DNA from: Dehalococcoidia bacterium
GTDB taxonomy: Bacteria; Chloroflexota; Dehalococcoidia; UBA2979
Reading direction: 5' to 3'
Length of the DNA stretch: 64,000 bases
Assembly (NCBI GenBank): GCA_963667465.2
Contig: CAXXDN010000002.1
Coordinates: 448,001-512,000 of the forward strand
The translations under genes were made by a program, and so were the position numbers. Every line of letters begins with the position of its first letter. The first letter of the stretch is position 1. Below are positions 9,475 to 42,460 of the stretch, piece by piece. The notes below the pieces were generated by a model that saw only the letters and a list, made by a program, of their open reading frames with translations, was not told where the DNA came from and made no database searches.

Positions 9475-9580
9475 GTCGGCTACCTGTCGTGCGACCCATC
9501 GCCGCCGCGGCGGTGGTAGCGGCCACCATCCTGGCGCTGTTCCTGAGCGGACAGCGACAGGTTCAGGCTGAGCAGCGCCG
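9471..9580 (+). pseudogene. Signal-peptide stub of a deleted second secreted protein
   Basis: GTG overlaps the upstream TGA. 'MSRLPVVRPIAAAAVVAATILALFLSGQRQVQAEQ' then runs directly into recombinase sequence. Confidence 0.55.
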
Positions 9581-9582
9581 GG

Positions 9583-10438
9583 GTGCTCGCCTTCCCCGCC
9601 ATCGTCTCCAGGGAGGAATTCAAGCAGGTCGTGGCGCTGCTGCGCGCGAAGGCGCCGACGCAGGTCCATCCCCGTCGCGCCGCCAGCCCCTACCTGCTCA
9701 GCGGACTGGTGCGCTGCCGGATGTGTCGCCGCGCGCTCACCGAGGCCGAGGCGAAGAGCGGCAAGTACAGCTACTACGTCTGCCAGTCCCTCTTGAAGCG
9801 CGGCAGCGGCACCTGCGAGACGCCGCGGCTCAACGCGCAGCGCTTCGAACGGCTGATCGTCGAACAGATCCGCGAGCACATCCTCACCGAGTCCAACATT
9901 CGCGACCTCGTCCGGCTCGTCGACGAGGAGATGGACGGCGTGGCCCGCGAGGAGCGGGCGAAGCTGGAGAGCATCGAGGCCGAGCTGGCCGAGGTGCGCC
10001 GCAGGATGGACCGGCTGTGGCACGCCGTCGAGACCTCCGACCTCGAGATCAACGACATCCTGCCGCGGCTCCGGCTGCACCAGGAGAGTCAGGAGCGCCT
10101 CGAGACCGCGGCCGAGGAGGCGCGCGGGAGCCTGGCGGAGCGCCGCGCGGTGCTGGACAGCGTGGAGACGATCGCGGCGTTCGCGCGGGAGATGAGCGCG
10201 TTCCTGGACCAGCGAGCTCACCGAGTCGAAGGCGTTCATTCGCTCGTTCGTGAAGGAGATCGCGGTGCAGCCCGGGACGGCGACGATTCGCTACACCATC
10301 CCCACGCCGCCGGACAGCCCGATCGGCGGGCGGGATGCTGCGGAGGTCGAGTTGCCGGAGGCAGTTCGCAGTACAGATGGCATGGCTGCCGGGGACCAGT
10401 ATGGCTGGGGACCGAGGATTCGAACCCCGACCTACTGA
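9583..10438 (+). pseudogene. Large serine recombinase, 5'-truncated and frameshifted near 10207
   Basis: 'PAIVS', 'YLLSGLVRCRMC', 'YYVC' Zn-ribbon and coiled coil are present; the catalytic N-domain is absent. The C-terminus 'TSELTESKAFIRSFVKEI…' continues in another frame into the antisense of tRNA-Gln. Confidence 0.85.
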
Positions 10439-24841: not shown

Positions 24842-25531
24842 TCACCCGATTTGCAGGCCCAGTACGGCGAGTGCGCGAGTGACGTCCGGGTCGTCGGGCC
24901 GGACCGGTTCGGTACTGAATGAACGCAAAGGTGCGGGCGTGTCCGCCGCCGGTTCGAAGATGGCCCAGTTGGATGTCCCGTCGTCGAGGCGCGACTGGTA
25001 GCGGATGCCGGCGAGCGGCTCGACTCCTTCGGTGCGGCACTCGTAGACGAGCCGGGAGACCTCCTGCGTGAAGCGGCGGGGAGCGGTGAGGCGAATCCCG
25101 GCTGCATCAATGTCCGGGAGCCCGTGATGGATGCCCCTGTCCGCCAGGCGCGAGCGCAGCACCGACAGCGAGGCAGCCGCGCCGATGTCGGCGTAGGTTC
25201 CAACGAGTTCAGCCACGCCCATGAGCCGGTGCTCGAACCACTCGCACGGGACCGTTCCGGCTGCAACCGGCTCGTCATCGCCCTCGATTTCGCGGAGCCC
25301 TGCCACAACCTCGAGGTCGGGGCGAAACGGTGCGAGCGTCTCGATCAGCGCTCCGAAGCGCGCCGTGCTGGCGTACAGAACACGGTAGAACCCCAGCGGA
25401 TCGTCCCAGCGATTGCCGAAGGTGCCGTCGTGGCCAGCCTGGCTCCAGTCGGGCCACGCCCAGGGTTCGGGAGCGCGGGCGAGACGGAAGACCGGACCGG
25501 CGGGGGTCACGGTCTCGAGGCCGCAGCTCAT
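24842..25531 (-). CDS. RES-domain toxin
   Basis: R ('GNRWDDP…VLYA'), E ('ALIETLA'), S ('GIRYQSR…NWAIFE'). Start overlaps the antitoxin stop. Confidence 0.88.
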   Translation of the reverse strand: MSCGLETVTPAGPVFRLARAPEPWAWPDWSQAGHDGTFGNRWDDPLGFYRVLYASTARFGALIETLAPFRPDLEVVAGLREIEGDDEPVAAGTVPCEWFEHRLMGVAELVGTYADIGAAASLSVLRSRLADRGIHHGLPDIDAAGIRLTAPRRFTQEVSRLVYECRTEGVEPLAGIRYQSRLDDGTSNWAIFEPAADTPAPLRSFSTEPVRPDDPDVTRALAVLGLQIG

Positions 25532-29300: not shown

Positions 29301-30147
29301 GCGCCGGTGCTGGTGGCAAGCGTGATCCTCGCCACCAGCGACTCGCCGGCGATCAGGCCACGGCCCAGCGTCACCGTCAGCACCGCGGTGTTGGACGTGT
29401 CGCCCTCGCCCAGCTCCATGTCCGTCGCTGCGAGCGACACACCGGTCGCCTCATCGTCTGTGATCCGCACCTTCTCCGAGCCGGTGGTGCCCGACACCGT
29501 GTACGCGTCCGTGCTGCTGCAACCCGCCGTGCTGGAGACGACGGCCGTCACGGTGATGACGCTGTCGAGATCGTCCGCATTCGTGTCCGTCCAGGCCACA
29601 TCGATCGACCCCGACTGCACGCCCGCAAGGAAGCTCACCGTCTTGATGCCTTCGGCGGCCGCGGCGACCCGGTCGGCGTCGCCCGACTCAGCCACGTTGA
29701 CGCAGACGGTCAGATTCGCCGCCGGCTGCGCGTCCAGCGACAAGGGGAAGGAGACCGTTTCGTCCACCTCGGGCTTCTCGACCTCGCCGTCGGCATTGCG
29801 GTTCTCGCCCTCACCCACCATCAGCCGCACCGACACCTCGGGGGGCGTCTGCGCCTGTGCCTCCTCGGCGGGGTACGCCAGGAGCAGCGCCAGGCTGAGC
29901 AACGCCAGCAGCAGGCCGCAGGCCACGGCGCCGGATCGGCCGCCGGCGGAACCAGGCTCAGGTCGGGAGGCGGAGCGCCGGAGTCGAGCCGGCCTCAGTC
30001 GCTTCGGAGACTCAGCACGTATGTGCGGGGGGGGGGGGGTACGGCGAGCGTCGACGCCGTCGACACGCGACGGCTGGCAGCGGCGAGGGCGGCGCGGACC
30101 GCAGGCAGCCGGCGCAGCGCACTTCGCCCGTCGCTCAACCTGCGCAT
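26324..30147 (-). CDS. Large secreted adhesin-like protein (Calx-beta repeats, FN3-like domain); reading frame interrupted at a C13 tract
   Basis: Signal peptide ending 'AEEAQAQ'; Calx-beta 'ISIAAGSG.TEG..A.FT.TA…ND..DEPDGSVTAT…ADDD' twice plus a C-terminal copy. The SD-led ATG at 30147 is out of frame with the long ORF. Confidence 0.82.
26690..27315 (-). repeat. Tandem ~300-bp duplication (two Calx-beta units)
   Basis: Near-identical blocks at 26690-27000 and 27000-27315. Confidence 0.85.
30027..30039. repeat. G13/C13 homopolymer (candidate phase-variation tract)
   Basis: atgtgc-ggggggggggggg-tacgg, inside the 5' coding region of the adhesin. Confidence 0.85.
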
Positions 30148-30944
30148 CGTGCGGTCCTCCAACCGGCCAGCACCCGGCGCCCGTGGCAGCCGGGGCCAGC
30201 GCCGGCTCGGTTGCCGCGCAGCCTAGGTCGCCCCGGACAGGAACGCAAGGCTGGGGTGGCTCGTGTCGATCGTCGCCGGGTGCCGCGCCTTGCGAGGGGC
30301 TGCCGCTGCGCGCAGCCGTCAGCGGCCGGAGGTGCCGGAGCGGTGACGGTGAACGTCGCGGCGCAGTCCTCGGTGACGCCCGCGCCGGCGACACCGTAGA
30401 GTCCACGCGGCTAGACTGACACGGGTCGTGGCGGGCCGATCTGTAGTGTCGGCGTGCGCCGCGACCGATACATCCTTCACGCCTCCACAGACCCCGACCT
30501 GCTAACCCGCTTGCGAGAGATGCTCGACAGCTCCGCCCGGGCGGACAACGCCGTCGGCTATTTCTTCATGCCCGGCTTCGGCGCGATCAGTACCGCGCTC
30601 TCCCGGCTCGACAAGGTCCGCATCCTTGATTATGGCGGTCACCCGCCACAGAAGCCCCTTCACCGTCATGGGCTAGATCCGTAACGTGGATGCCTTTGCA
30701 GATCATGCGGGGCAGAGCTTCTTGTGAGAGCAACATGCGGCTGTGCGCCTGCTCAGGTTGGCTCGCCTCGACCCAGGGGACGCCTGCACATCCACGCCTC
30801 GACCGCTGGGACCTGCTCCCGACTGCGGGGAGATGCTGGACAGCTCTGTGTCGACACCGACAGAGCCATCAGGTACTTCTTCATGCCCGGCTTCGGCGAC
30901 GACGCGGTACGATAGCGAGCGCGCATACCGCCGGAGGGCCAGCC

Positions 30945-31199
30945 ATGACTACAACCGTCAGAGCCACCTACGCCGACGGCGTGCTCACGCCTCTGGAACC
31001 CCTCGACATCGAGGAGGGCAGGGAGGTAACGCTCTCAATCGAGGACGCAGCGTCGCCGAAACGAGGGCTGGCCGGCATCGTCGAGACAGTCGAGGAGCTT
31101 CACAGGACCATCCCCCCGGAGGCGTGGGACGCCCTGCCAGCTGATGGCGCGAAGAACTACAAGCACTATCTGTACGGCCACCCGAAGGAAGACGCCTGA
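30945..31199 (+). CDS. Antitoxin, AF2212/DUF104 family
   Basis: 'MTTTVRATYADGVLTPLEPLDIEEGREVTLSI…NYKHYLYG'; GGAGG SD. Confidence 0.85.
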   Translation: MTTTVRATYADGVLTPLEPLDIEEGREVTLSIEDAASPKRGLAGIVETVEELHRTIPPEAWDALPADGAKNYKHYLYGHPKEDA

Positions 31200-31610
31200 T
31201 ACGAGTAGTGTTCGCCGATGCGGCGCACTGGATCGCATTGTGGAATCCTCGAGACGCCATGCACGAGCGGGCGGTGGCTGTTGCCGCACGGCTGGGGTCG
31301 GCCGCAGTCGTCACTACACAGGCCGTCTTGTTCGAGGCGCTGAACTTCATGGCCGGGATGGGAGAATTCCGCCGGCTGTTTTGCAGTGCGGATGGTGCGG
31401 GACATGGAAGACAATCCCGATGTCGAGATCGTCCCGCAGACGGACGCTCAGTTCAGAAGCGCCGTCGAGCGGTACGCCGCCCGTCCTGATCAGACGTGGG
31501 GGCTCGCCGACTGCGCGAGCTTCCTCCTCATGGAAGAGCGGAGCATCACCGAGGCACTCACGCATGACCGCGACTTCGAGCAGGCGGGCTTCACCGCCCT
31601 GCTCCGGTAG
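31196..31610 (+). pseudogene. vapC: PIN-domain VapC toxin, +1 frameshift at T4 (31379-31382)
   Basis: 'VFADAAHWIAL…D..H…E' in one frame and 'WGLADCASFLLM…ALTHDRDFEQAGF' in the next. Confidence 0.82.
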
Positions 31611-31839
31611 GATGGGCATGATCGGGCGCGTGACCAGCCTCGCGGCGTAATCCCGTGAACATCCTCCACGCCTCCACAGACCCCGACCTGTTGACCCGCC
31701 TGCGGGAGATGCTCGACAGCTCCGCCCGGGCCGACATCGCCGTAGGCTACTTCTTCATGCCCGGCTTCGGCGCGATCAGTGCCGAGCTCTCCGGGCTCGA
31801 CAAGGTCCGCATCCTCGTCGGCCGTGCCGATCGGCAGGG

Positions 31840-32104
31840 CTCGGGCGCGTCCCGGTCCTCAAGGCGCGCATGAACGCCGACCTGCACATGGCCGACGACC
31901 TCAAGAACACCGGCAAGGGCAATCTCTTCGTCATCTTCGGCGAGCCGGACATCGACATCCTCGACGCCTCGGGCGACGCCGATGCCGAGCCCGGGCAGGT
32001 CAAGGTGAAAGGTGAACGGCGTCGACGTCTTCCACCCGAACACCGGCGAGGTGCGCAGCGACGGCCCGGAGGGCATCGCCTGCTGGTTCATCGACACCGA
32101 CTAC
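31840..32104 (+). pseudogene. Type III RM Mod (DNA methyltransferase) C-terminal fragment
   Basis: 'LGRVPVLKARMNADLHMADDLKNTGKGNLFVIFGEPDI…(frameshift)…GVDVFHPNTGEVRS…IACWFIDTDY'. Confidence 0.75.
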
Positions 32105-32480: not shown

Positions 32481-32700
32481 GCTCGTCGTGACGCCGCCGC
32501 GTACCGGCGAGCGCACGCTCGTCGCCGTCGAGAACCTGCTCGGCTCGATCGCGCTCCCGGAGCCGTTCGCGCTGGAGATCGCCGGCGACGCCGACGGCGT
32601 CTCCGTGCTGACCCGCTGCGGCGAGCGCTCGCTCGCGCGCCAGCAGCTCGAGGCCTACTACCCGCAGGCGCGCATTGCCGAACTCAGTGATGACCCGTCA
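32480..32700 (+). pseudogene. Fragment resembling the N-terminus of an ICE type IV coupling/ATPase protein
   Basis: 'VTPPRTGERTLVAVENLLGSIA.PEPFALEIAGD…QQL.AYYPQARI'. The assignment is from recalled similarity and is weak. Confidence 0.4.
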
Positions 32701-32810
32701 CACCGCCACCGAAGCCGGCACGCGCGTGCACGCGCACATCTGCACATCAGCCTTGCCGCCCGGATCGAGATTCCCGCGCTGCGCGCAGGTATGACGAGTG
32801 GTTCCGTGGC

Positions 32811-35747
32811 TCATGTTCTGGCGAGTTGGCGCTCGATGAGGTGACGGAAGGGGCCCTCGACGTTCGATAGCTCGTCGAAGTCGCCGACTTGGACGACGCG
32901 GCCCCGCTGCATCACGTAGATGCGGTCGGCTTGGCGAATCGTCGACATGCGATGCGCAATCACAATGCGAGTCGCGGCGAGCCGCTCGATGCTCCGCATC
33001 ACCTGCGCCTGACTGCGGGAGTCGAGCCAGCTGGTCGCCTCGTCGAGCCAGATGACGCGCGGATTGCGGACGAGCGCCGCGGCGATCCGGAGGCGCTGGG
33101 TCTGTCCGCCGGAGAACGTGGCCGAACCCTCGGTGACGACGGTGTAGAGCTGCATCGGCATCTGCGAGATCTCGTCCTCGATGGCGGCCTCACGAACGGC
33201 GCGCCACGCGTCTTCGATCGTGAGCTCGTCGCCCATGCCGATGATGTTGTCGAGCAGGCTTCCAGGCTGCAGTGCTCCGTCTTGCATGACCACGCCGAGC
33301 TGGCGTCGCAGCGCTTGACGATCGAGCGAGGCGAGGTCCCGACCGTCGTAGTAGATGCTGCCAGCGGTCGGATCCTCGAGCCCCAGCGCGAGCCGCATCA
33401 GCGTGCTCTTGCCCGAGCCTGACTCGCCCACGATGGCGATGAACTCGCCCGCCCGAGCGGAGATTGAAACGTCCTCGAGCAATGGCGTATCAGGCTGGTA
33501 ACGAAAGCTGACGTGGTCGAAGCGGACGTCGCCCTGTGGTGAGATCGGGGCGCCGCTGAGCGCGCCGGTCTCGGGCAGCTCGTCCAGAACTGGCTTGACC
33601 TGCTCGTAGCCGGGCAGCGCGGCGGCGATCGCTTCAAACGAGCGCCCGAGGTTGGCGGCGGCCGCGAAGAACGTCATCACGATTGCGTAAACGACGAGGA
33701 AGTCGCTGATCTGAAGAACATCGGCGTCGCGAGAGAGCGCGACTGCGAACAGCGCCGCGCCGACGAGCACGGGGGTCGCGGCGCTGAGCGAGACGAGGTG
33801 TTCGTTCAGCCGCGAGATCTGAATGCCGGCGAGATGTTGCTCACGATAGTGTCGGGCCCAGGCAGCGAAGGCCGAAGGCTCGGCGCCCGCGCCTCTGAGC
33901 TTGCTGATCCCGTTGATGAACTGAAGGAGCTCGCCGGCTAGCCGACGCTCGGCGGCGAAGCTGCGTCGTTGTGGCCGGAGTTGCCAGAGTCCGATGATCG
34001 CCGTGAGCAGCATCATCGCGACGGCCAACGCAATGCTGACCATGGCGAGCGTGACGTCGTAGAAGAAGAGAATCGCCAGTGTCGGCAGGAGGAAGACGAA
34101 CGAGAGCAACGCGTTCGCGACGACGCCCGAGATCTGGTCGCGCATGAGCTGGAACGTCGCCATGCGGATCGCGAGCTCGCCAGCGGTGAAGCGCCGGAAG
34201 AAGGTCGGTGAGAGCGTGAGGAGGCGATCCCAGACGGCAGCGCTGACACGAGCTGCGCCGCGTCCCTCGAGGCGCATCATCGAGGTGCCTTGCAGCACCT
34301 GAAACAGCACGCCCACGACACCGAAGGCGCCCAGCGCGATCATCAGTTGGAGCAGGATGTCGCCAGCGGCGGAGGCGAGCACCCAGTCGGTGAGGACGCC
34401 GACGACGATCGCTGGCGCCTGCAACAGCAACGCCGCTAGTAGTCCCGCAAGCGCGAAGCGGACGAAGCTCCCCGCGGCGCCTTGTCCGCCGATGCGGGCC
34501 AGATCAGTTGCGCCGACCGTGCGCTCTGTGGGCAACGTTGGGTAGCAAAGCCAAGCGTCGGAGTGGAGCTGGGCCGCGCGCGACTCATCCACTCGGACTC
34601 GCGCTCCGCTGGTGGCATCGATCATCCGATAGCGACCGCTCCAGTGCGGCAACAGCGCAACGGGCCGACGTTCCTCGCCGTGGAAGCCGATCATTGCGCC
34701 GCTGTCGCCGCGCCACCAGCGATCCTCCGGTTGGAGGCGCACCTGTCGGGCGCGGACTCCTGACGCGCTCAACACCGCGGCGAGCGTCGGTTCCTCGGCG
34801 ACCAAACCTGGTTGCGGAGCAGGTCGCTGGAAGCGCAGGCCTTCGTGATCGCCGATCAGCGCGAGCGCCGACATCAGCGCGGAGCCATCGTGGGCGACAG
34901 TGTCGCGCTCGCGGGCGAGAAGTTGATTGAGCCCAGCCCGAGCCTGCTCGGCGTCGCGACGACGGAGCGCCTCGCGCGCGGTCTGCTCGTTGACGACATC
35001 GGCCTGGAGCAGCAGTCGATTGAGCTGCTCGGCGCCGATTGCGAGCGCGTGGAATTCGTCCAAAGCCTGCAGCAGCCGTCCCGATTGCGCGAGCTGGCGC
35101 GATCGGAGCACTTCGAGCGCCGTCTCGGCCGAGAACGTGAGCCACGTGTCGAAGCTGAGCGGAGCGAGTCCGATGTCGTCGGGCGATGGAGTCTCCGTGC
35201 CGAGATAGGCTGCCTCACCCTGGTCGACGCCGATCCAGACCACCGCTCCGGCACGGGTCGAGAGCACGCTGTTCGCGTCTGCGTGGATGGGGGAGCGATT
35301 CGCGGGGTCAACGACAAGCGTCGGACGTGGTCGAGGATCGATTCTCACCGCCACGGCGCTGCCGATCGCGCTGACCCAGCGGTCGACCTGGTCAGCGAGC
35401 TCATCCGCGAACTCGCGTGCCGCGAGCGCCGATCTCCGCAGCTTGGCCAAACGCGCGCCTGGCAGGCCCTTGGCAATGGCTACCAACGGCGTGCCGTGCG
35501 AGCCGATTCCGAAGAGCAGCTGTCCCGCCTCGGCTCGAACGATGTGTCGCGCCGACGAACTGGTGAGACCGTCCGCTTGCTCAAACAGAAACACGTCGAC
35601 CGCACCCTCGAGCACGAGGTAGGCGACTGACGGATCGCCGAGTGTGATCGGATGGTTGGCGGCGCTCGCGACCGCCTCACCCTCGCTGAGCGCGAAGCTC
35701 ACGAGTCGGGATTGCTCACGAGCATCGGTGGTTTGGTGAGTCGTCAT
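32811..35747 (-). CDS. NHLP/NHLM bacteriocin-system ABC transporter permease/ATPase (no peptidase) with N-terminal cNMP-like domain
   Basis: 'WWRGDSGAMIGF', TM domain, 'GESGSGKST', 'FSGGQ', 'LDEATS', 'IAHR'. Confidence 0.9.
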   Translation of the reverse strand: MTTHQTTDAREQSRLVSFALSEGEAVASAANHPITLGDPSVAYLVLEGAVDVFLFEQADGLTSSSARHIVRAEAGQLLFGIGSHGTPLVAIAKGLPGARLAKLRRSALAAREFADELADQVDRWVSAIGSAVAVRIDPRPRPTLVVDPANRSPIHADANSVLSTRAGAVVWIGVDQGEAAYLGTETPSPDDIGLAPLSFDTWLTFSAETALEVLRSRQLAQSGRLLQALDEFHALAIGAEQLNRLLLQADVVNEQTAREALRRRDAEQARAGLNQLLARERDTVAHDGSALMSALALIGDHEGLRFQRPAPQPGLVAEEPTLAAVLSASGVRARQVRLQPEDRWWRGDSGAMIGFHGEERRPVALLPHWSGRYRMIDATSGARVRVDESRAAQLHSDAWLCYPTLPTERTVGATDLARIGGQGAAGSFVRFALAGLLAALLLQAPAIVVGVLTDWVLASAAGDILLQLMIALGAFGVVGVLFQVLQGTSMMRLEGRGAARVSAAVWDRLLTLSPTFFRRFTAGELAIRMATFQLMRDQISGVVANALLSFVFLLPTLAILFFYDVTLAMVSIALAVAMMLLTAIIGLWQLRPQRRSFAAERRLAGELLQFINGISKLRGAGAEPSAFAAWARHYREQHLAGIQISRLNEHLVSLSAATPVLVGAALFAVALSRDADVLQISDFLVVYAIVMTFFAAAANLGRSFEAIAAALPGYEQVKPVLDELPETGALSGAPISPQGDVRFDHVSFRYQPDTPLLEDVSISARAGEFIAIVGESGSGKSTLMRLALGLEDPTAGSIYYDGRDLASLDRQALRRQLGVVMQDGALQPGSLLDNIIGMGDELTIEDAWRAVREAAIEDEISQMPMQLYTVVTEGSATFSGGQTQRLRIAAALVRNPRVIWLDEATSWLDSRSQAQVMRSIERLAATRIVIAHRMSTIRQADRIYVMQRGRVVQVGDFDELSNVEGPFRHLIERQLART

Positions 35748-37960
35748 TGGGACTGCACCAGTTGGGCGTAGATGCCGTCGCGATCGGCGATCAGGTCCTC
35801 ATGCACGCCACGCTGCACTTCGCGACCCTGATCGAGCACGATGATCTGGTCGCAGTCGCGGATCGTGCTGAGTCGGTGCGCCACGATCAGGCAGGAGCAG
35901 CCGCGGCGGCGCAGTGCGTCGTCGATCCGCTGCTCGGTGACTGCGTCGAGAGTGCTCGTTGCCTCATCCAGGAAGAGCAGCGACGGTCGGTTGACGAGCG
36001 CCCGCGCGATCTCGAGGCGTTGGCGCTGTCCGCCACTGAAGTTCCGTCCGCCTTCCTGGACATGGGCGTCGTAGCCACCGCTCCGACCGACGATCTCCTC
36101 GTGGATCATGGCGTCGCGAGCGGCGGCGACCATATCGGCTTCAGCGATGGCAGCGTTCCACATCTTCAGGTTGTCGCGGATGGTTCCGTCGAAGAGCGCG
36201 ATCTGCTGGTCGACCGTCGCCAGAGACGCAGTCAGGACGGAGCGTGGAACATCGCGCATGGGCACGCCGTCGAAGTGGATCTCGCCCGACCAGAGGGTGT
36301 ATTCGCCAGTCAGGAGTCGCAGCAGGGTCGATTTGCCGGAGCCGGTTGGTCCGACGATGGCGACCCGCTGACCGGGCTCGATTGTGAGGCTGACGCCGTC
36401 GATCAGCGGGTCGGCGTTACGTCGGTAGCCGAAGCGGACATCGCGCAGCTCAAGTCGGCCCGCGAGTCGGAGCCGACCGTTGAGGCTGGCCACCGCGCCG
36501 TCCTGACGCTCCCGCTGCGACGACTCGGCGGCGGTGAGCGCTACGTCTTCCTCGGCGCCAAGGATGTCGGCGACGCGTTGGAGGTCGGCCTCGAGCAGCT
36601 GGAAGGAGTCGGCGAACTGGACGAAGCGTCCGATCGGTGCGAGGAAGTTGCCAGCCAACACGTAGACCGCAATCAGCTCACCGATCGTGAGGTCGCCCTC
36701 GATCACGCGCCAACCGCCGAGTCCGAGCACGGCCATTCCGCCCATGAGCAAGAACAGTCGCGGCAACGCCGCATTGACGTAGCCAAGCTCGACGAAGCGC
36801 TGTCGGGCTGCCAGTTCCCGCGCCTGGTAACCGCTCCAGCGAGCAAAGAAGTCGTTCTCGGCAGCGGTGGCGCGGAGCGAGTCAATCTGTCGCAGTCCGG
36901 CTGTCTCGATCCCGAAGAGCAACGCCTGCTCGCGACGTAGCTGTCGATTCTGGTCCAGCCGACGCTGACTCAAGACGCGCGCCACGAGCACATTACCAAC
37001 GGCAATCGTGAGCACGACCAAGCCGATCAGCGGGTCATAGACGACGAGCAGCGCAAACAGGAGAGCGCTCATAATCAGCTCGACGACCACACCCACGAGC
37101 TGTTGCGCAGCGCCTGCGGCGATCTGATCAACGAGGCTGAGTCGGGCAGCGAGCTCCCCGGCGAATCGATGTGCGAAATACTGTATGGGTAGTCGGAAGA
37201 GTCGCCAGAGCAGTCGCTGCGACTGGGTCACGGCGAGCTGGATCGTGATCTTGCGCAGCATCACCTGTTGCAGCCACGTGAGCACGTAGACCGTGAAACC
37301 AGCGAGCACCATCGCGCCGACAATCCAACCTCCCCAATCGCGCTGACCGCCGATGAGGACGTCGTCGACGAAGATGCTCAGAAGGATCGGCAGCGCGAGC
37401 GCCGGGATCGCGAGCAGCAGACCGGCCAGCGTGACATAGGCCAGCGCGCCCTGAGCCTCCCGCAACCAAGGCCAGAGCGCGCGCCAAATGTTGGGCGGCT
37501 CGCCACCGGGACAGAACGATTCCGTTGGCTCGGCCGTCAGGACGATTCCAGTGAACGCCTCGCTGAAGGTCTCGCGGCTCACCGTGCGTCGGCCGTTGGC
37601 GGGATCGTTGAGGTGGAAGCGATCCTCAGACATCCCCTCTAGCACGAGGAAATGGTTGAACTCCCAGAAGAGAATGGCGGGAAGATTGACCTCACTGAGT
37701 GACTCCACATCCTTGCGCCAACCGCGGATACGGAGGCCGTAACGCTCACCGGCGCGAACAATGCCCGCGGCATTGGAGCCGTCGCGGCTGACGCCGCAGG
37801 CCTCGCGCAGCTCCTCAAGCGGGACCCAACGTCCGAGGTGCGCGAGGACAATCCCGAGCGAAGCCGCACCGCATTCGGCTGCCTCAAGCTGCGGGATAAT
37901 CGGCGTGCGCAACCGACGTCGGCGGAAGGATGGCCAGCCTGGTCTGGAGAGGATCGCCAC
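35744..37960 (-). CDS. NHLP-family peptidase-containing ABC transporter (C39 peptidase/permease/ATPase)
   Basis: 'PQLEAAECGAASL' (catalytic Cys), 'CGVSRDGS', 'WEFNHFLV' (His), 'GPTGSGKST', 'FSGGQRQRLEIARAL', 'RRRGCSCLIVAHRLSTIRDCD'. GTG at 37960 with a GGAG SD. Confidence 0.93.
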   Translation of the reverse strand: MAILSRPGWPSFRRRRLRTPIIPQLEAAECGAASLGIVLAHLGRWVPLEELREACGVSRDGSNAAGIVRAGERYGLRIRGWRKDVESLSEVNLPAILFWEFNHFLVLEGMSEDRFHLNDPANGRRTVSRETFSEAFTGIVLTAEPTESFCPGGEPPNIWRALWPWLREAQGALAYVTLAGLLLAIPALALPILLSIFVDDVLIGGQRDWGGWIVGAMVLAGFTVYVLTWLQQVMLRKITIQLAVTQSQRLLWRLFRLPIQYFAHRFAGELAARLSLVDQIAAGAAQQLVGVVVELIMSALLFALLVVYDPLIGLVVLTIAVGNVLVARVLSQRRLDQNRQLRREQALLFGIETAGLRQIDSLRATAAENDFFARWSGYQARELAARQRFVELGYVNAALPRLFLLMGGMAVLGLGGWRVIEGDLTIGELIAVYVLAGNFLAPIGRFVQFADSFQLLEADLQRVADILGAEEDVALTAAESSQRERQDGAVASLNGRLRLAGRLELRDVRFGYRRNADPLIDGVSLTIEPGQRVAIVGPTGSGKSTLLRLLTGEYTLWSGEIHFDGVPMRDVPRSVLTASLATVDQQIALFDGTIRDNLKMWNAAIAEADMVAAARDAMIHEEIVGRSGGYDAHVQEGGRNFSGGQRQRLEIARALVNRPSLLFLDEATSTLDAVTEQRIDDALRRRGCSCLIVAHRLSTIRDCDQIIVLDQGREVQRGVHEDLIADRDGIYAQLVQSQ

Positions 37961-37965
37961 GGCCG

Positions 37966-38478
37966 TTACTCCAGCCCGAGTGGAGCGGCGCTGATCACGG
38001 CGATCAGTCGAATCGGCGATTCGCGGCTGGTAACGATGCGCAGGTGGCAGGTGTCGCCGTCGCGCCACGCTTCCGACGGCGCGTCCGACAGGCTGACTTG
38101 GATCAGTGGTCGGCGCTCGTTGGCGTCCGAGGTCTGGATTGCGACCTGGGAAACCTGACCAGCGAGCGCTCTGTCGGAGCCAACGCGGCTGACTCGCGCC
38201 GACATCCCGACCGCGACCCGTCGCGCGTCGGCGGTGGAAAGTTGCGCCTCAGCGGCGGGCTCTCCGGCCGGGGTTGAGACGAGGACGCAGGGCGCGGAGA
38301 GCCCGCGTTCGATCGTGCCAAACACAGCCCAGAGCAGGACGCCAACCATCGCGCAGCCGAGCATCGCCAAGAAAAGCCACTCGTGCGGAGCGGTAATGCG
38401 GAGCAAACCATCGATCGGTTCGCTGCGTCCGCGTCGGGCGAAGGCTTCGTCGCGATACAGCCGCCGACGCTCGGACAT
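37966..38478 (-). CDS. Short HlyD-like NHLP secretion accessory protein
   Basis: 'LYRDEAF…EPIDGLLRITAPHEW', TM segment, C-terminal 'PIRL'; lacks the long coiled-coil hairpin. Confidence 0.78.
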   Translation of the reverse strand: MSERRRLYRDEAFARRGRSEPIDGLLRITAPHEWLFLAMLGCAMVGVLLWAVFGTIERGLSAPCVLVSTPAGEPAAEAQLSTADARRVAVGMSARVSRVGSDRALAGQVSQVAIQTSDANERRPLIQVSLSDAPSEAWRDGDTCHLRIVTSRESPIRLIAVISAAPLGLE

Positions 38479-38737
38479 CGCAGAACACCCTCCGCCAGCT
38501 CAAGTCAGGAGCCGAGCTTGGGTCAGGCTAACGCGCTGATCGAGAACGCTATGCGTCGCTGTAGCGGAAACGGCAAGTTTCCCAGGCCATACGGATCTCT
38601 GTAGGTGACGTCCCGTCTTGGGCCTCGGCGCGCGATGCTCAAAGGTAGGGCTCGACGGGACCTGGAGGGCTCGCGGTCGTCGGCCTTCGGTTCATCGACC
38701 GCTCGGTCATGGCCATACCCTGCTGGACTTCAATGTG

Positions 38738-38917
38738 CTACGTCTTGTTCGACGATGATCCGCTGCCCGCGTTGTGATACGTGTGTGACGACGCAGGCGA
38801 GCTTGCCTTGCCGGCGGCGCTGATCTGATTCAGCTCCTCAGCGCTGAGCTCGTCGACGTTCGCGGCAACGGCTTCCTTGGCCTGGTCCCTGGTTGCTGCG
38901 TCAGTCTGCTTTGCCAT
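38738..38917 (-). CDS. Double-glycine-type RiPP/bacteriocin precursor 2 (59 aa)
   Basis: MAKQTDAATRDQAKEAVAANVD-ELSAEELNQISAA-GKASSPASSHTYHNAGSGSSSNKT; AGGTG SD; leader is paralogous to precursor 1. Confidence 0.8.
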   Translation of the reverse strand: MAKQTDAATRDQAKEAVAANVDELSAEELNQISAAGKASSPASSHTYHNAGSGSSSNKT

Positions 38918-38967
38918 ACTGCACCTGTTCCCGAACACTGACCACCCGTTGGGAACCGGATCGTGCC

Positions 38968-39141
38968 CTAGTCGATCGTTGCCTGCCACGGCTGCTGCGC
39001 GTTGTTGTAGGAGCTGCGCTTGCCGGCGCCCGTGCCACCGCTGACGTCTTCAAGCTCCTCGGCGCTGAGCTGCTCATCAACCCGAGCGGCGACGGTTTCC
39101 TCGGCTTCGTCCTTGGTTGTCGCGTCAGTCTGCTTTGGCAT
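38968..39141 (-). CDS. Double-glycine-type RiPP/bacteriocin precursor 1 (57 aa; not in ORF track)
   Basis: MPKQTDATTKDEAEETVAARVDEQ-LSAEELEDVSGG-TGAGKRSSYNNAQQPWQATID; GAGGTGA SD. Confidence 0.85.
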   Translation of the reverse strand: MPKQTDATTKDEAEETVAARVDEQLSAEELEDVSGGTGAGKRSSYNNAQQPWQATID

Positions 39142-39164
39142 GCCTCACCTCTTGTCGAGCCCGA

Positions 39165-39192
39165 ATCGTATCAGTCCGAATCAGGTTGTCAA
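39165..39192 (-). promoter_or_regulatory. Sigma70-type promoter of the precursor/export operon
   Basis: TTGACA (39192-39187), 16 nt spacer, TACGAT (39170-39165) with a TG extension. Confidence 0.7.
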
Positions 39193-39284
39193 TACGCAAC
39201 TGGCGCAAAGCCGGATGTCGGCCTCCACGACGGGACGCACCATCCGGGCGATGCGCCCGCGCCGGGCCCTGATGCCCCGCAGGA

Positions 39285-40085
39285 CGCGCCCCGGTAATGC
39301 AACGCCACCTGGATGCCGTAGTCCACCGTGAGACTGATGATGAGTATCGGGATGATCACCGAAATGCCGCTCGGCCGGCCGAGGAGGCCGAGCCCGTTCG
39401 GCCCCAGCCAACCCTCCGCGCCGACGACCCACACGATGGCCATCAGCAGGCCTGTGAGCGAAAGCACCACGTCCGATGGCGACCTGAGGAAGAGAAACAT
39501 CAGAACCGCGATCAGCAGAAATGATGCTCCGATGAGCGGGGTGATGTCCTCCCGGTACGACCGCTGATACTCGTCCTCGATCACCGCCTGGGACACACTG
39601 CTCACGAGCAGCGGGCTGGTTTCGCCAGCCACGATCTCGTGAATCGTGCGCTCAGCGTCCTTTATTCGCTCGTCGCCGGTGTCTCGGAGGCGGATCGCGG
39701 CGATCGCGACCGGTGTGCCGTCGGTGTCGGTTCCGGTCAGCGAGTTGAGAGCGCCCTCGATCTCGGGAACGCTGCGTACGGCGTCAATCCGTTCCTGTGA
39801 GAGCGACTCGAGACCGTCTGCCCCGAGCACGGATTCGATGATCAGAGAGGGTGCGGCGATCGGGTCGGTTGGCGCGAACAACTCCGCCAGCTCGGGGTCG
39901 CTCGCGATCTCCGCAATCAGGCCGGACATCTGCGAGAGTCCGTCGGGGGTCAGCGCCTCCCCGCGGAAGAGCAGCGTGACCACGTTGATCTCGCCCGACT
40001 CTCCGAAGAGCTCGCCGATTTCGTCCAGTGCCCTGGCGACAGCATTGTCGCGGGGAAAGTACCCATCCGTCTCGTCGAGCTCAGC
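39285..40085 (-). pseudogene. MMPL/RND paralog fragment (N-terminal half only)
   Basis: 'TLLFRGEALTP.GL', 'GTDTDGT…AAIRL', 'GAEGWLGP', 'VDYGIQ' match 2878-5319; both ends are missing. Confidence 0.8.
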
Positions 40086-40486
40086 GCGTAGCTCGCGCTC
40101 GTCGCCGCCGTGGCCGCGCAGTCGCCGCCCCACGCCGCCAGCTTGTGCCCGTCCGCAGCGGTCGCCGTGACCGTGACCGCAGTGCCCGCTACGTAGCCCG
40201 GTCCGGCCGGGTCCGCGCTCAGGCTCCCGCCCGCACCCGCCGCGAGCGTCAGCGTGTAGGTCGCGGGTGTCGCCGTGGCGGTCGGCGTCGATGTGGCCGT
40301 CGCGGTTGCAGTCGGCGTGGGTGTCGGCGTCGCCGTGGCGGTTGGCGTCGGCGTGGCCGTTGTCGTCGGGGTCACGGTCGCCGTGTGGTCGGCGGCGACG
40401 CGCGGCGGCTCGCCGCCGCCGAGGCTCGCCGCGGCGGCCACGGCCAGCGCGAGCACCACGATCGCCGCCAGCGCGCGCCCGCTCAC
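40086..40486 (-). pseudogene. Truncated secreted protein (signal peptide, Thr/Pro linker, InlB B-repeat)
   Basis: GTG 40486 overlaps the upstream stop. The B-repeat is nearly identical to that in 40483-42237, and the sequence breaks into the MMPL fragment. Confidence 0.72.
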
Positions 40487-42237
40487 TTGCCCCCGCCCGC
40501 GCGCCGCAGCGACTTCACGATCGCGTCGAGGATCGCGCCCACGTCGCGCCCGCCCTCGCTCGCCTGCGCGGCGTCGGCCGCTACGCCGGGCCGCCAGCGT
40601 CCAGAGGGCGTGAGCGTGGTGGTGTTGATCTCCTGGTGCCAGCCGCTCGCCACGTCCTCGAAGCTCACGTAGGCCTCGGCGTTGACGTAGCCCCAGCCCA
40701 CGTAGCGCAGGCGCGTGCCCGCGGGCACGTCGATCACGGCCCCGTCGCCGATCTGCCAGGCGCGCCCGCCCTCGATCACGTTGTCCGGATACAGCGTGGG
40801 GATGCCGCCCCCGCCGATGAAGGCGGGGCTGCCCTCGACCGCCGCGGAGGGGCTGCCCGCGAGCGTCCCGGCGACGGCGCGCAGCTGCCAGTGGTGGGCG
40901 TGGCGCACCCCGCCGGGGTTCAGCCCGCTCACGCGATGGCTGCGCGTCGCCGCGCCGCTGCCGGGCACGTCGGTCCACGCCCCCCAGGGCTTGAGCTCGT
41001 ACCGTTGCAGGCGCAGCCGGTACTGCCACTTGGTGACGCCCGCGGCGTCGCCCGTGGGGGTCCACTCGAGCAGCACCTCGCCGGCGTTGCCGGTCGTCAC
41101 GGCGAGCAGCACGGGCGCGGCGGGCGGGCCCAGCGCGGCGAAGCTCGCCGACACCGTGCGGTCGCCGTCCAGCATCAGCGCGCAGCTCGCGCTCGTCGCC
41201 GGCGTCGCCGCGCAGTCGCCGCCCCACGCCGCCAGCTTGTGCCCGTCCGCAGCGGTCGCCGTGACCGTGACCGCCGCGCCCGCGACGTAGCCCGGTCCGG
41301 CCGGGTCCGCGCTCAGGCTCCCGCCCGCACCCGCCGCGAGCGTCAGGGTGTAGGTCGTGGCCGTCGCCGTGGCGGTCGGGGTCGGGGTGGCAGTCGCCGT
41401 AGCAGTCGCCGTAGCAGTCGCCGTCGCGGTCGCAGCCGGCGTGGGGGTGGGCGTGGCGCAGTCCTTGATCGAGAGCTTCCCGAGGTCGTTGCTCGACACC
41501 TTGCGCAGCACGGGCGGCACGCAGCCCGTGAAGGCGTTGCCCGAAACCTTCAACGTCGAGAGCCCATCCAGGTTCGCGGGCAGGCTGCCGCTCAGCTTGT
41601 TGCCGTTCACGGTCAGGTGCCGCAGCGAGGCCGACTGACCCAGTTCCTCTGGGATGGACCCGCTCAGCTGGTTGCCGGCCAGGTGCAGCGCCCACAGCGG
41701 TGGGCCTGACCCCAACTCCTTCGGAATGCCCCCCGTGAGCTGGTTGCCGGTGACGTTCAGGTAGCTGAGCGCCTTGAGTTGCGCCCACTCCTTCGGAATG
41801 CCGCCCGTGAGCTGATTGTCGTTCAGGGCCAAGCTCACGAGAGCGGTCAACTGCGAGAGGCTGGGGGGCAGCGTGCCCGCAAGCCCCCTGTCGATGAGGT
41901 TCACGGTCGTGACCCGCCCCGACTGCACGTGCACGCCGTCCCAGCTCGCGATCGCGAGGTCGGGGCTCCAGTTGAGGGCGTCGGTGACCGTCCCCTCGAG
42001 GTCAGCCTGGACGGCCAGCAGCACGGTGCAATCCGCCACCAGGCCGGGATTGCTAGTCGGGTCGGGGACCGCCCCGTCCGTCGCGCAACCGTCGTCCGCG
42101 GCGTCCAGTGCCCCGCGCACGCCCGCGATCGTCAGCGCCAGCGTGAACAGCACCGCCAGTGCCAGCGTCAGGCCCGCCCCCACCGTGCCCACCAGGCCCG
42201 CGCCTATGAGTCGTCCGCCCCACCGTGTCCGCAGCAT
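40483..42237 (-). CDS. Secreted protein: plant-type LRR domain, InlB B-repeat, FN3-like domain
   Basis: LRRNT-like 'DC..LL…LNW…W.GV', repeats 'L..L.L..NQLTGGIPKE', 'N.FTGCVP' cap, TP linker, B-repeat, 'V.LEWT…W.YR'. Confidence 0.87.
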   Translation of the reverse strand: MLRTRWGGRLIGAGLVGTVGAGLTLALAVLFTLALTIAGVRGALDAADDGCATDGAVPDPTSNPGLVADCTVLLAVQADLEGTVTDALNWSPDLAIASWDGVHVQSGRVTTVNLIDRGLAGTLPPSLSQLTALVSLALNDNQLTGGIPKEWAQLKALSYLNVTGNQLTGGIPKELGSGPPLWALHLAGNQLSGSIPEELGQSASLRHLTVNGNKLSGSLPANLDGLSTLKVSGNAFTGCVPPVLRKVSSNDLGKLSIKDCATPTPTPAATATATATATATATATPTPTATATATTYTLTLAAGAGGSLSADPAGPGYVAGAAVTVTATAADGHKLAAWGGDCAATPATSASCALMLDGDRTVSASFAALGPPAAPVLLAVTTGNAGEVLLEWTPTGDAAGVTKWQYRLRLQRYELKPWGAWTDVPGSGAATRSHRVSGLNPGGVRHAHHWQLRAVAGTLAGSPSAAVEGSPAFIGGGGIPTLYPDNVIEGGRAWQIGDGAVIDVPAGTRLRYVGWGYVNAEAYVSFEDVASGWHQEINTTTLTPSGRWRPGVAADAAQASEGGRDVGAILDAIVKSLRRAGGGK

Positions 42238-42460
42238 CGGCTCCCGCCTCCGCCAAGCTCCGCAGCACCGCAGGCCTATGCCGCCTCTTGCGAACATAGG
42301 GCAGCGCTCGCAGATCAGCGCGCTCGTACTCGACGCTGCCGAACGAATGCTGTTGTACGGGGCGCCTCCCGCGGGTCGCACCCCCATGATCGCAGCAACT
42401 CATCCCTCTGGTGAGTTGTTCAGACCCATCCCTAAGGGTGTTGCGCCCTATGATCGGTGC

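What the first reader, a model, noticed from the sequence alone, without database searches (positions are those of the whole stretch)
32811..39192. Orphan NHLP-type export operon with two small double-glycine precursors sharing an AGK-x-SS…Y-x-N-A core and no modifying enzyme
Seen: a consensus promoter (TTGACA-16-TG/TACGAT) precedes two SD-led paralogous ORFs. One (38968-39141) is too short for the ORF track; the other is mis-started in it. Leaders end LSAEELEDVSGG and LSAEELNQISAA. Cores are TGAGKRSSYNNAQQPWQATID and (A)GKASSPASSHTYHNAGSGSSSNKT. Next come a short HlyD, an intact C39-peptidase ABC transporter and the partner ABC. Established: this three-gene NHLM transporter set normally accompanies YcaO, LanM or radical-SAM modifiers and long NHLP/Nif11 leaders. 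Here the leaders are only ~35 aa, the cores have no Cys, and no modifier lies in the window. Inference: either an unmodified secreted peptide pair (signal or two-component bacteriocin), or substrates modified in trans, since Y-x-N resembles the aromatic-x-x motifs crosslinked by triceptide-type radical SAM enzymes. The operon is intact inside an otherwise decayed island, which suggests selection.
Basis: partly seen in the sequence, partly recalled or inferred. Interest (0 to 1): 0.8.

Follow-up and report, generated by a model that had tools for sequence, protein, structure and literature searches.

The report
Mobile peptide-export cassette in sponge symbionts
A self-contained 6.4-kb gene cassette that cuts and exports a few small water-soluble peptides has spread by gene transfer among distantly related sponge-associated bacteria, and nothing suggests the peptides are chemically modified.

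Summary
Window 32784-39208 (minus strand) carries one strong promoter-like site, two double-glycine-leader peptides (57 and 59 aa), a 170-aa HlyD-like adaptor, a C39-peptidase ABC transporter (TIGR03796, above cut-off) and its partner ABC (TIGR03797, above cut-off). New here: the block is a horizontally moved cassette. It is about 92% identical in nucleotides to copies in MAGs whose housekeeping genes are only 65-73% identical, it has sharp ends, and its GC3 is foreign. A third precursor gene, present in sister cassettes, is deleted in this window. The short adaptor is a conserved family (transmembrane helix plus one beta-barrel domain), not decay. The extra N-terminus of the partner ABC is a tandem cyclic-nucleotide-binding-like fold, not an enzyme. 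No modifier lies beside any of the 5 sister cassettes I annotated. No SPASM, YcaO or LanC-like gene was found in 0 of 4 cassette genomes, and no MNIO in 0 of 5. The Tyr of peptide 2 is not conserved, and peptide 3 has no aromatic residue. Best reading: leader-cleaved, probably unmodified, hydrophilic secreted peptides whose role is unknown. Expression is untested. This is a new variant of a known kind, of moderate interest.

The parts
32784..39208 (-). whole cassette as delimited by homology to sister copies
   Evidence: blastn: 91.5-92.6% identity over 5.8 kb, plus 82-84% over the peptide region, to L031, L032 and L033, with nothing beyond these ends. GC3 is 0.77-0.80 against 0.88-0.97 for neighbouring native genes.
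39165..39192 (-). promoter-like site TTGACA-16-TACGAT with TG
   Evidence: It is the only hit in 7 kb on both strands. It is partly conserved in L031 and L032 (TCGACA; TACTAT/TATTAT) and not in L033.
38968..39141 (-). pep1 precursor, 57 aa: 36-aa leader ending VSGG, 21-aa core
   Evidence: There are 7 protein clusters at 77-91% identity. Residues -4 V, -7 L and -12 L are hydrophobic. dN/dS is 0.29.
38738..38917 (-). pep2 precursor, 59 aa: 35-aa leader ending ISAA, 24-aa core
   Evidence: Orthologues are present in 4 of 4 close sister cassettes. dN/dS is 0.50.
38640..38710 (-). remnant of a third precursor gene (pep3), broken by a 13-nt and a roughly 111-nt deletion
   Evidence: Sister loci L031, L032 and L059 encode an intact GG-leader peptide here. 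The window keeps only the first codons and the 3' end. Coordinates are approximate.
37966..38478 (-). short HlyD-like membrane fusion protein, 170 aa
   Evidence: TIGR03794 N-terminal match only. 45 of 47 homologue clusters are 167-190 aa long. The model has a TM helix at 31-53 and one beta domain that matches MFP beta-barrel domains. C64 and C144 are invariant.
35744..37960 (-). ABC1: C39 peptidase, permease and ATPase (738 aa from GTG 37960; the open frame reaches 38068)
   Evidence: TIGR03796 at 920.7 bits, PF03412, PF00664 and PF00005. Full-length match to PCAT1 4ry2 (E 1e-83) and ComA. dN/dS is 0.08.
32811..35747 (-). ABC2: partner permease/ATPase, 978 aa, with an N-terminal extension of about 288 aa
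   Evidence: TIGR03797 at 720.2 bits over residues 289-975. The model of residues 1-320 (pLDDT 86.5) matches PKA regulatory subunits, E 3.8e-7. dN/dS is 0.11. Its start overlaps the ABC1 stop (ATGA).
39189..40133 (-). flank: 5' fragment of an MMPL transporter gene, cut off at the cassette's upstream end
   Evidence: PF03176 partial match. It equals residues 29-302 of an orthologue of at least 794 aa in G016, and the rest is not next to the cassette.

Best explanation
This is a self-contained, horizontally mobile double-glycine peptide secretion cassette. One promoter drives two small precursors (three in the ancestral cassette), followed by the export machinery. The roughly 36-aa leaders carry the hydrophobic -12/-7/-4 positions and end in GG (pep1) or AA (pep2). 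The C39 domain of ABC1 should bind the leader and cut after that pair, while ABC1 and ABC2 translocate the core. A minimal membrane fusion protein (cytoplasmic tail, one TM helix, one beta-barrel domain) assists; it is enough for an envelope without a TolC-type outer channel. The products are most likely unmodified linear peptides of 21-27 residues, strongly hydrophilic and Cys-free. Given that hydrophilicity, and because I recognised no immunity gene, kinase or regulator in the cassette, I think an extracellular signalling, matrix or partner-interaction role in the sponge microbiome is more likely than a pore-forming bacteriocin. Shown: gene content, family membership of the two ABC proteins, the folds, conservation, horizontal transfer, and absence of the known modifier families that were searched. 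Inferred: cleavage, export, lack of modification, and the biological role.
For: ABC1 and ABC2 pass the curated cut-offs of TIGR03796 and TIGR03797. ABC1 aligns end to end with the solved PCAT1 and ComA transporters and keeps the QLEAAECGAASL and NHFLVLEG...NDPANG stretches (that these are the catalytic motifs is recalled). Both leaders have V/I at -4, L at -7 and L at -12, the recognition positions described for LahT and ComA (passages of PMC10885120). No other leader of this kind exists in the genome. The transporter genes are under strong purifying selection (dN/dS 0.08 and 0.11), the adaptor 0.30, and the peptides 0.29 and 0.50, over 5 cassettes. No modifier lies in the flanks of 5 of 5 sister loci or in the window. 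SPASM, YcaO and LanC-like genes: 0 of 4 genomes. MNIO: 0 of 5. The radical SAM proteins of this genome that pass the cut-off fall in housekeeping or TIGR03960 families. The ABC2 extension is a cyclic-nucleotide-binding-like tandem, not an enzyme fold. Six of 6 cores examined have no Cys and GRAVY from -0.7 to -1.5. The short adaptor is a conserved family. No TolC-family gene (0 of 5) and no full-length NHLM HlyD (0 of 5 over cut-off) is found in cassette genomes. Horizontal transfer: the cassette is 92% identical against 65-73% for moaA and miaB, and its GC3 is foreign. Precedents: cyanobacterial GG-motif clusters in which 150 of 290 precursors are neither NHLP nor Nif11 type (PMC3140520, passages), and the secreted EbfG1-4 proteins with the PteB transporter that act in biofilm formation (PMC4997328, abstract).
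Against: There is no evidence of transcription, cleavage or secretion; no RNA holder was listed and only contigs could be laid. AA is not among the canonical GG/GA/GS cleavage pairs. The pep1 core is conserved along its whole length, with [YF]-N in 13 of 14 pep1-type sequences and a second aromatic residue, which would also fit a recognition motif for an unknown enzyme. Absence of modifiers was tested only for families that have models, in genomes about 93-97% complete where completeness is known. The peptide genes are weakly constrained and individually lost (pep3 here; in L033 the pep1 start is lost and pep3 is frameshifted), so some may be dispensable. The role assigned to the peptides rests on composition and on missing accessory genes only. 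I did not run a systematic search for small membrane-protein ORFs.
Confidence: 0.6

Rival explanations
1. The peptides are RiPP precursors modified in trans by an enzyme encoded elsewhere, of a family not yet linked to RiPPs or missed by the models used. The cassette supplies only leader removal and export.
For: NHLM transporters usually accompany modified peptides (PMC3140520 passages; PMC10885120 passages). The pep1 core is conserved in full, with [YF]-N and W/Y-Q/N-A-T motifs. Conserved leaders on very different cores are typical of RiPP families. A P450-GPP34 fusion lies 7 kb from the cassette in L031.
Against: No SPASM, YcaO or LanC-like gene (0 of 4 genomes) and no MNIO (0 of 5). No enzyme recurs in the flanks of 5 sister loci, and the P450 is present in 1 of 5. 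The cassette moves as a unit with sharp ends, from the promoter to the ABC2 stop, so a trans partner would have to exist already in each distantly related recipient.
Confidence: 0.2
2. It is an unmodified multi-peptide (class IIb-like) bacteriocin system used against competitors in the sponge.
For: Double-glycine leaders with a PCAT transporter and several co-transcribed peptides. Weak leader-only hits to TIGR03949 and to the CTB bacteriocin family (E about 0.01, below cut-off). Turnover and horizontal spread of peptide genes resemble bacteriocin loci.
Against: The cores are strongly hydrophilic (GRAVY -1.29 and -1.15) and Gly/Ser/Asn-rich, with no amphipathic or hydrophobic stretch. I recognised no immunity-type gene in the cassette; the only spacer holds the pep3 remnant. 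The family hits lie below cut-off and cover only the leader.
Confidence: 0.13
3. The peptides are triceptide-type substrates: aromatic-x-Asn motifs cross-linked by a three-residue cyclophane-forming radical SAM enzyme.
For: Y-N-N and W-Q-A in pep1 and Y-H-N in pep2. A weak hit of pep1 to the HaaA cyclophane precursor model (E 0.075, 13.3 bits against a cut-off of 55). Known cross-links join an aromatic residue to C-beta of residue i+2, often Asn (PMC11002830 passages).
Against: These enzymes are SPASM-containing radical SAM proteins, and no SPASM domain was found in 0 of 4 cassette genomes while the control rang in 8 of 14 genomes. None of the radical SAM proteins classified in this genome falls in a peptide-modifying family. 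The pep2 Tyr is T in L031 and Q in L033. pep3 has no Trp, Tyr or Phe.
Confidence: 0.03
4. It is a decaying, no longer functional remnant of a larger biosynthetic cluster.
For: pep3 is deleted here. L033 has lost the pep1 ATG. A second locus in G063 keeps only a peptide, the adaptor and stubs of both ABC genes. The surrounding DNA is full of gene fragments.
Against: All five genes are open in the window. ABC1 and ABC2 have dN/dS of 0.08 and 0.11 over 5 copies. The same minimal gene set recurs in 5 sister loci, including one only 74% identical.
Confidence: 0.04

Closest known systems
NHLM (NHLP/Nif11-associated) three-gene bacteriocin export system, TIGR03794/03796/03797
   Same: ABC1 and ABC2 pass the equivalog cut-offs. 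The gene order is adaptor, peptidase-ABC, partner ABC. The long N-terminal extension on the partner is as described for cyanobacterial 'long type' transporters.
   Different: The precursors are not NHLP or Nif11 type: leaders are about 36 aa, and neither model matched at E 0.1. The adaptor is 170 aa instead of about 420 and fails its model. There is no modifying enzyme nearby or, for the families searched, in the genome.
Cyanobacterial double-glycine clusters with 'other' precursors, and EbfG1-4/PteB of Synechococcus elongatus
   Same: Small GG-motif proteins encoded in tandem and secreted through a C39 peptidase transporter, with a non-antibiotic role shown for EbfG (PMC4997328 abstract; PMC3140520 passages).
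   Different: No sequence relationship was tested or seen. The hosts here are sponge-associated MAGs labelled Dehalococcoidia or Candidatus Spongiisociaceae, the cores are much shorter, and the cassette is horizontally mobile.
PCAT1 / ComA-ComC type peptidase-containing ABC exporters
   Same: ABC1 aligns over its full length (E 1e-83 and 1e-77). The leaders have the -4/-7/-12 hydrophobic pattern.
   Different: A second ABC protein without a recognisable peptidase domain is present (one search found no similarity to the C39 domain). I recognised no kinase or regulator pair as in com or blp loci. The pep2 leader ends in AA.
Triceptides (3-CyFE radical SAM cyclophane peptides)
   Same: Aromatic-x-Asn motifs occur in pep1 and in this window's pep2.
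   Different: No SPASM radical SAM enzyme is present in carriers. The motif is not conserved in pep2 and is absent from pep3.
Hairpin-less membrane fusion proteins such as BesA, and Spr0693 of Gram-positive MacAB-like pumps
   Same: The beta domain of the short adaptor superposes on their beta-barrel domain (about 80 residues, rmsd 2.4-2.8 A).
   Different: Here only one extracytoplasmic domain remains, with two invariant Cys. The lipoyl and alpha-hairpin domains are both missing.

Membership tests
NHLM bacteriocin export system | Peptidase/permease/ATPase subunit reaches the TIGR03796 cut-off | tested here: met
   920.7 bits against 853.3
NHLM bacteriocin export system | Partner permease/ATPase reaches the TIGR03797 cut-off | tested here: met
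   720.2 bits against 709.4
NHLM bacteriocin export system | HlyD-type secretion protein reaches the TIGR03794 cut-off | tested here: not met
   32.4 bits against 156.2, covering only model positions 6-48. No full-length copy in 0 of 5 carrier genomes.
NHLM bacteriocin export system | Substrates with an NHLP or Nif11-type leader | tested here: not met
   Neither peptide matched either leader model at E 0.1. TIGR03793 was found in 0 of 5 genomes, but the control rang nowhere, so that genome search is weak.
Double-glycine leader peptide / PCAT substrate | Hydrophobic residues at -4, -7 and -12, and a GG, GA or GS end | tested here: met
   pep1 has V, L, L and GG. pep2 has I, L, L but ends in AA, which is outside the canonical set.
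Double-glycine leader peptide / PCAT substrate | Cognate transporter with a complete C39 domain | tested here: met
   PF03412 positions 2-132 of 133, E 1e-33. The Cys and His motif stretches are visible; their catalytic role is recalled.
Double-glycine leader peptide / PCAT substrate | Cleavage and export shown | not testable with these tools
   Needs an in vitro C39 assay or peptidomics.
Triceptides | SPASM radical SAM 3-CyFE in the cluster or genome | tested here: not met
   PF13186 in 0 of 4 genomes, control 8 of 14. The radical SAM proteins were classified.
Triceptides | Conserved aromatic-x-x motifs in the core | tested here: inconclusive
   pep1-type sequences have [YF]-N in 13 of 14. 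pep2 has Tyr in 4 of 6. pep3 has none.
Class IIb two-peptide bacteriocins | Precursor reaches the family model cut-off | tested here: not met
   TIGR03949 at 15.3 bits against 21.5, in the leader region only.
Class IIb two-peptide bacteriocins | Amphipathic or hydrophobic cores and an adjacent immunity gene | tested here: not met
   GRAVY is -1.29 and -1.15. I saw no further gene in the cassette; the spacer holds the pep3 remnant. Small membrane ORFs were not searched for systematically.
Membrane fusion protein (HlyD/MacA) superfamily | N-terminal TM helix plus MFP beta-barrel fold | tested here: met
   Model helix 31-53. Foldseek hits to Spr0693, BesA, MacA, HlyD, ZneB and EmrA, E 5e-4 to 5e-3. 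PF13437 is below its cut-off (18.1 against 22.2).
Membrane fusion protein (HlyD/MacA) superfamily | Alpha-hairpin and lipoyl domains | tested here: not met
   The 170-aa protein has a single beta domain at 56-153.

The most novel reading that the evidence does not exclude
The cassette is a sponge-holobiont 'shared' secretion module. Unrelated symbiont lineages acquire the same export machinery and a small repertoire of hydrophilic peptides that act as cross-lineage or host-directed signals. Alternatively, the fully conserved pep1 core is the substrate of a modification made by an enzyme class not yet linked to ribosomal peptides.
Probability: 0.18. Interest if true: 0.72.

Novelty: new variant of a known kind. 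Interest (0 to 1): 0.42.

Why it matters
Sponge symbionts are uncultured, and little is known about how they interact with each other and with the host. This is a compact cassette that carries its own promoter-like site. It crosses deep lineage boundaries at about 90% identity while its transporter genes stay under strong purifying selection. That marks a secreted-peptide function that several symbionts find worth acquiring. The predicted products are short enough to synthesise, and their predicted masses can be looked for in sponge extracts. The 170-aa single-domain adaptor also shows how far a membrane fusion protein can be reduced where no TolC-type channel is found. For RiPP mining, it is a clear case where an NHLM transporter does not imply a modified product.

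Tried and rejected
Expression: the look-up of sequencing runs listed no RNA holder. Read laying could use only Logan contigs, which show that runs X1 and X3 hold the exact cassette and that X8 and X12 hold variants, but say nothing about transcripts.

A JGI metagenome scan with the pep1-type alignment found no relative among 598 pattern matches. A first attempt with the broader alignment was rejected as too variable.

The TIGR03793 genome search is uninformative because its control rang in no genome.

The Atlas look-up of the ABC2 N-terminus gave only scores below 0.9; the fold search replaced it.

BLASTP of the ABC1 C39 domain against ABC2 residues 285-440 found nothing (E 5). I therefore do not claim a degenerate C39-like domain in ABC2.

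Candidate modifiers were considered and dropped. The P450-GPP34 fusion occurs in L031 only. The radical SAM gene 4 kb from the L033 cassette belongs to the Rv2578c family.

Two weak Radical_SAM hits in G000, both below the cut-off, were not classified.

The peptide matches in 20 of 60 relatives all have E of 0.06 or more, and nearly all lie inside open frames far longer than a small peptide. I count them as chance.

P0013-P0015 are larger proteins and not members of the peptide family.

Literature: searches listed no paper describing this peptide family or cassette. I saw listings only, and supplements were not consulted.
Full report
**What is there**

On the minus strand of window 32784-39208 lies one compact operon.

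- **Promoter.** A promoter scan of 32500-39500 on both strands returns a single sigma-70-like site: TTGACA, 16 nt, TACGAT, preceded by TG, at 39192-39165. Shuffles give 0.4 such sites.
- **pep1 (38968-39141).** It follows an AGAGGTGA ribosome-binding stretch. It has 57 aa, with a leader ending LSAEELEDVSGG and the core TGAGKRSSYNNAQQPWQATID.
- **pep2 (38738-38917).** It has 59 aa, with a leader ending LSAEELNQISAA and the core GKASSPASSHTYHNAGSGSSSNKT.
- **Leader recognition positions.** Both leaders have V/I, L, L at -4, -7 and -12. These are the positions read by C39 peptidase domains according to passages of PMC10885120. AA is outside the GG/GA/GS set named there.
- **Uniqueness.** A loose regex for such leaders, run over all six frames of the 2.97-Mb genome, hits only these two ORFs.
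- **Downstream genes.** These are a 170-aa HlyD-like protein (37966-38478), ABC1 (35744-37960) and ABC2 (32811-35747). The sister loci start ABC1 at the equivalent of GTG 37960 (738 aa), not at 38068.
- **Transporter family scores.** ABC1 scores 920.7 bits on TIGR03796 (cut-off 853.3) and has a complete C39 domain. ABC2 scores 720.2 bits on TIGR03797 (cut-off 709.4). ABC1 aligns end to end with the solved PCAT1 and ComA exporters.

**A third, broken precursor**

A profile of the peptide family finds an extra leader-like match between pep2 and hlyD in sister cassettes.

- L031, L032 and L059 encode an intact third GG-leader peptide there. Its core is of the type GHKGTATPGQNTAGSPPTPLGTGPANL.
- L033 has a one-base insertion in that leader.
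- The window has lost 13 nt and then about 111 nt, leaving a remnant at roughly 38640-38710.

So the ancestral cassette had three precursors and this copy has two. G222 has a fourth, divergent pep1-like copy.

**The cassette is horizontally mobile**

- **Identity to sister copies.** blastn shows 91.5-92.6% identity over the transporter genes and 82-84% over the peptide region. The matches are to three public MAG records, two labelled Dehalococcoidia and one Candidatus Spongiisociaceae. Homology stops about 70 nt upstream of pep1 and within 0-35 nt after the ABC2 stop.
- **Housekeeping genes for comparison.** moaA and miaB of those genomes are only 65-73% identical to those of G000.
- **Composition.** Cassette genes have GC3 of 0.77-0.80, against 0.88-0.97 for neighbouring native genes.
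- **Distribution among relatives.** None of 60 relatives has a credible homologue, including 18 genomes of the same genus (best E 0.063). In a sample of 401 genomes of the class, only G000, G222 and G311 have the family.
- **G061 against G062.** These two are about 95% identical in the two housekeeping genes, yet their cassettes are 90.6% identical and the 10-kb flanks do not align. Radical SAM landmarks suggest the same broad chromosomal region.
- **Insertion site in the window.** The upstream neighbour is the first about 300 codons of an MMPL gene whose orthologue in G016 has at least 794 codons. The rest is not adjacent.
- **Ends.** No terminal repeats were evident in the end alignments, so the mechanism of movement is unknown.
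- **Occurrence in public runs.** Contigs of runs labelled with three coded organisms and 'sponge metagenome' hold the exact cassette or variants of it. The kind of library is not on record.

**Is a modifier hiding?**

- **Flanks.** Ten-kb flanks of L031-L033, and the flanks of L059 and L060, were annotated with Pfam. They hold thiolase, acyl-CoA dehydrogenase, amidotransferase, SRP54, binding proteins, repeat proteins and several ORFs without a family. There is one P450-GPP34 fusion, in L031 only. Nothing recurs across loci.
- **The diverged cassette.** L060 (G311) is the useful outgroup. Its transporter genes are only 74% identical and its three peptides are transcribed divergently, with quite different cores. 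It has the same three export genes and nothing else.
- **Genome-wide searches in carriers.** No match was found for SPASM (0 of 4 genomes; control 8 of 14), YcaO (0 of 4), LanC-like (0 of 4) or MNIO (0 of 5).
- **Radical SAM proteins of G000.** The 9 that pass the Pfam cut-off are MoaA, MiaB, RimO, HemW, LipA, RlmN, a PA0069-like protein and two proteins of the TIGR03960 B12-binding radical SAM family, one of which scores below that model's cut-off. Two sub-threshold hits were not classified.
- **The ABC2 extension.** The extra 288 residues at the ABC2 N-terminus were the last place for a hidden enzyme. They are conserved in proteins of about 975 aa from many sources. The model (pLDDT 86.5) shows two beta-roll domains and a long helix, and it matches regulatory subunits of cAMP-dependent kinases at E 3.8e-7. 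This agrees with the 'long type' extension described for cyanobacteria (PMC3140520 passages).

**The Y-x-N idea**

Triceptide cross-links join an aromatic residue to C-beta of residue i+2, often Asn, and are made by SPASM radical SAM enzymes (PMC11002830 passages).

- In pep1-type sequences the [YF]-N pair is kept in 13 of 14 and a second aromatic residue in all.
- The pep2 Tyr is Thr in L031 and Gln in L033, so Tyr is present in 4 of 6.
- pep3 has no Trp, Tyr or Phe.
- The enzyme class is not found in carriers.
- The hit of pep1 to the HaaA model is 13.3 bits against a cut-off of 55.

I rate this reading at about 3%.

**The short adaptor is a family, not decay**

- **Homologue lengths.** 45 of 47 homologue clusters are 167-190 aa long, down to 42% identity.
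- **Conservation.** In an alignment of 35 sequences the cytoplasmic tail is nearly invariant, and two Cys (C64, C144) in the outer domain are invariant.
- **Fold.** The model (pLDDT 75.5) has a TM helix at 31-53 and one beta domain at 56-153. That domain superposes on the beta-barrel domain of Spr0693, BesA, MacA, HlyD, ZneB and EmrA.
- **Envelope context.** Carrier genomes have no TolC-family gene (0 of 5; the control rings in 7 of 14, all of them double-membrane bacteria). They also have no full-length NHLM HlyD (0 of 5 over cut-off). A hairpin-less, lipoyl-less adaptor fits an envelope without an outer channel. That Chloroflexota are single-membrane bacteria is recalled, not tested.

**Selection**

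dN/dS values over five cassettes:

| Gene | dN/dS |
|---|---|
| ABC1 | 0.08 |
| ABC2 | 0.11 |
| adaptor | 0.30 |
| pep1 | 0.29 (core 0.46) |
| pep2 | 0.50 (core 0.56) |

The peptide figures rest on few sites. Individual peptide genes are lost: pep3 here, and in L033 the pep1 ATG is changed to ACG and pep3 is frameshifted. A second locus in G063 keeps a pep1-type gene and the adaptor, but only stubs of both ABC genes. The machinery is the constrained part, and the cargo turns over.

**What the peptides are**

The family is rare. A profile search of 1.84 billion representative proteins gives 9 hits, of which 6 are small peptides. A word-based search gives 7 close clusters. All six cores examined lack Cys and are strongly hydrophilic, with GRAVY from -0.7 to -1.5. 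I recognised no immunity gene, kinase or regulator in the cassette.

I therefore favour leader-cleaved, unmodified, soluble peptides with a signalling, matrix or partner-interaction role (0.6). The rivals are an unknown trans modification (0.2), a bacteriocin (0.13), a triceptide (0.03) and a dead remnant (0.04).

The closest functional precedent is the secreted EbfG1-4 proteins with the PteB transporter of Synechococcus (PMC4997328 abstract). The closest genomic precedent is the cyanobacterial GG-motif clusters, in which 150 of 290 precursors are neither NHLP nor Nif11 type (PMC3140520 passages).

**Limits**

- Nothing shows transcription, cleavage or secretion.
- Negative genome searches cover only families that have models.
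- Completeness is 93.6% for G000 and 97% for G222, and is not given for G061-G063.
- Paper supplements were not consulted.
- The searches listed no description of this cassette, but they cover open-access text only.

Noticed in passing
window 39189-40133 (-): This is a 5' fragment (314 aa) of an MMPL transporter gene that ends at the cassette's upstream boundary. The orthologue in same-genus genome G016 has at least 794 codons. A 48%-identical paralogue sits at window 2908-5295.
   Followed up: yes
window 30454-30684 and 31655-31873 (+): Two nearly identical N-terminal gene fragments (both begin ...ILHASTDPDLLTRLREMLDSSARAD...) lie 1.2 kb apart. Between them are an AF2212-like ORF (30690-31199) and a PIN-domain fragment (31386-31610). 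It looks like duplicated debris of a larger gene plus a toxin-antitoxin remnant.
   Followed up: partly
window 26324-30406 (-); L031 4350-9677; L032 4250-9826; L033 6-5870: Very large repeat proteins lie within a few kb of the cassette in 4 of the 6 loci, although the flanks are otherwise unrelated. The window's copy has a Calx-beta domain and a signal-peptide-like N-terminus. Its repeats share 66-76% nt identity with L031 and L033. This could be chance in repeat-rich symbiont genomes, or a preferred landing region.
   Followed up: partly
L071 (G063:C1) 8799-10075: A second, decayed cassette lies in the same genome as L033. It has a pep1-type gene (9899-10075), a 171-aa adaptor (69% identical) and only short stubs of ABC1 (residues 19-93) and ABC2 (residues 949-976).
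   Followed up: partly
L060 (G311) 9398-10362 (+): The diverged cassette carries three precursors with the same leader type but unrelated hydrophilic cores rich in N, Q, S, T, P and G. They are transcribed divergently from the export genes. Several cores across the family contain N-x-S/T triplets, which may simply reflect composition.
   Followed up: no
window 40483-42387 (-) and 24842-25531 (-): Near the cassette are a leucine-rich-repeat protein with an InlB-type B-repeat (a eukaryote-like repeat protein typical of symbionts) and a RES-domain toxin-like ORF.
   Followed up: no
P0014, P0015: Two proteins of 197-240 aa from the representative library contain three or four repeated double-glycine leader-like segments (ELSAQ.LE.VAGG) in one chain. 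This is an unusual concatenated arrangement, unrelated to this cassette.
   Followed up: no
window 32811-35747 (-), residues 1-320 of ABC2: The N-terminal extension folds as two cyclic-nucleotide-binding-like beta rolls plus a roughly 60-residue helix, yet Pfam PF00027 does not match. Whether it binds a nucleotide, the leader or nothing is open.
   Followed up: partly
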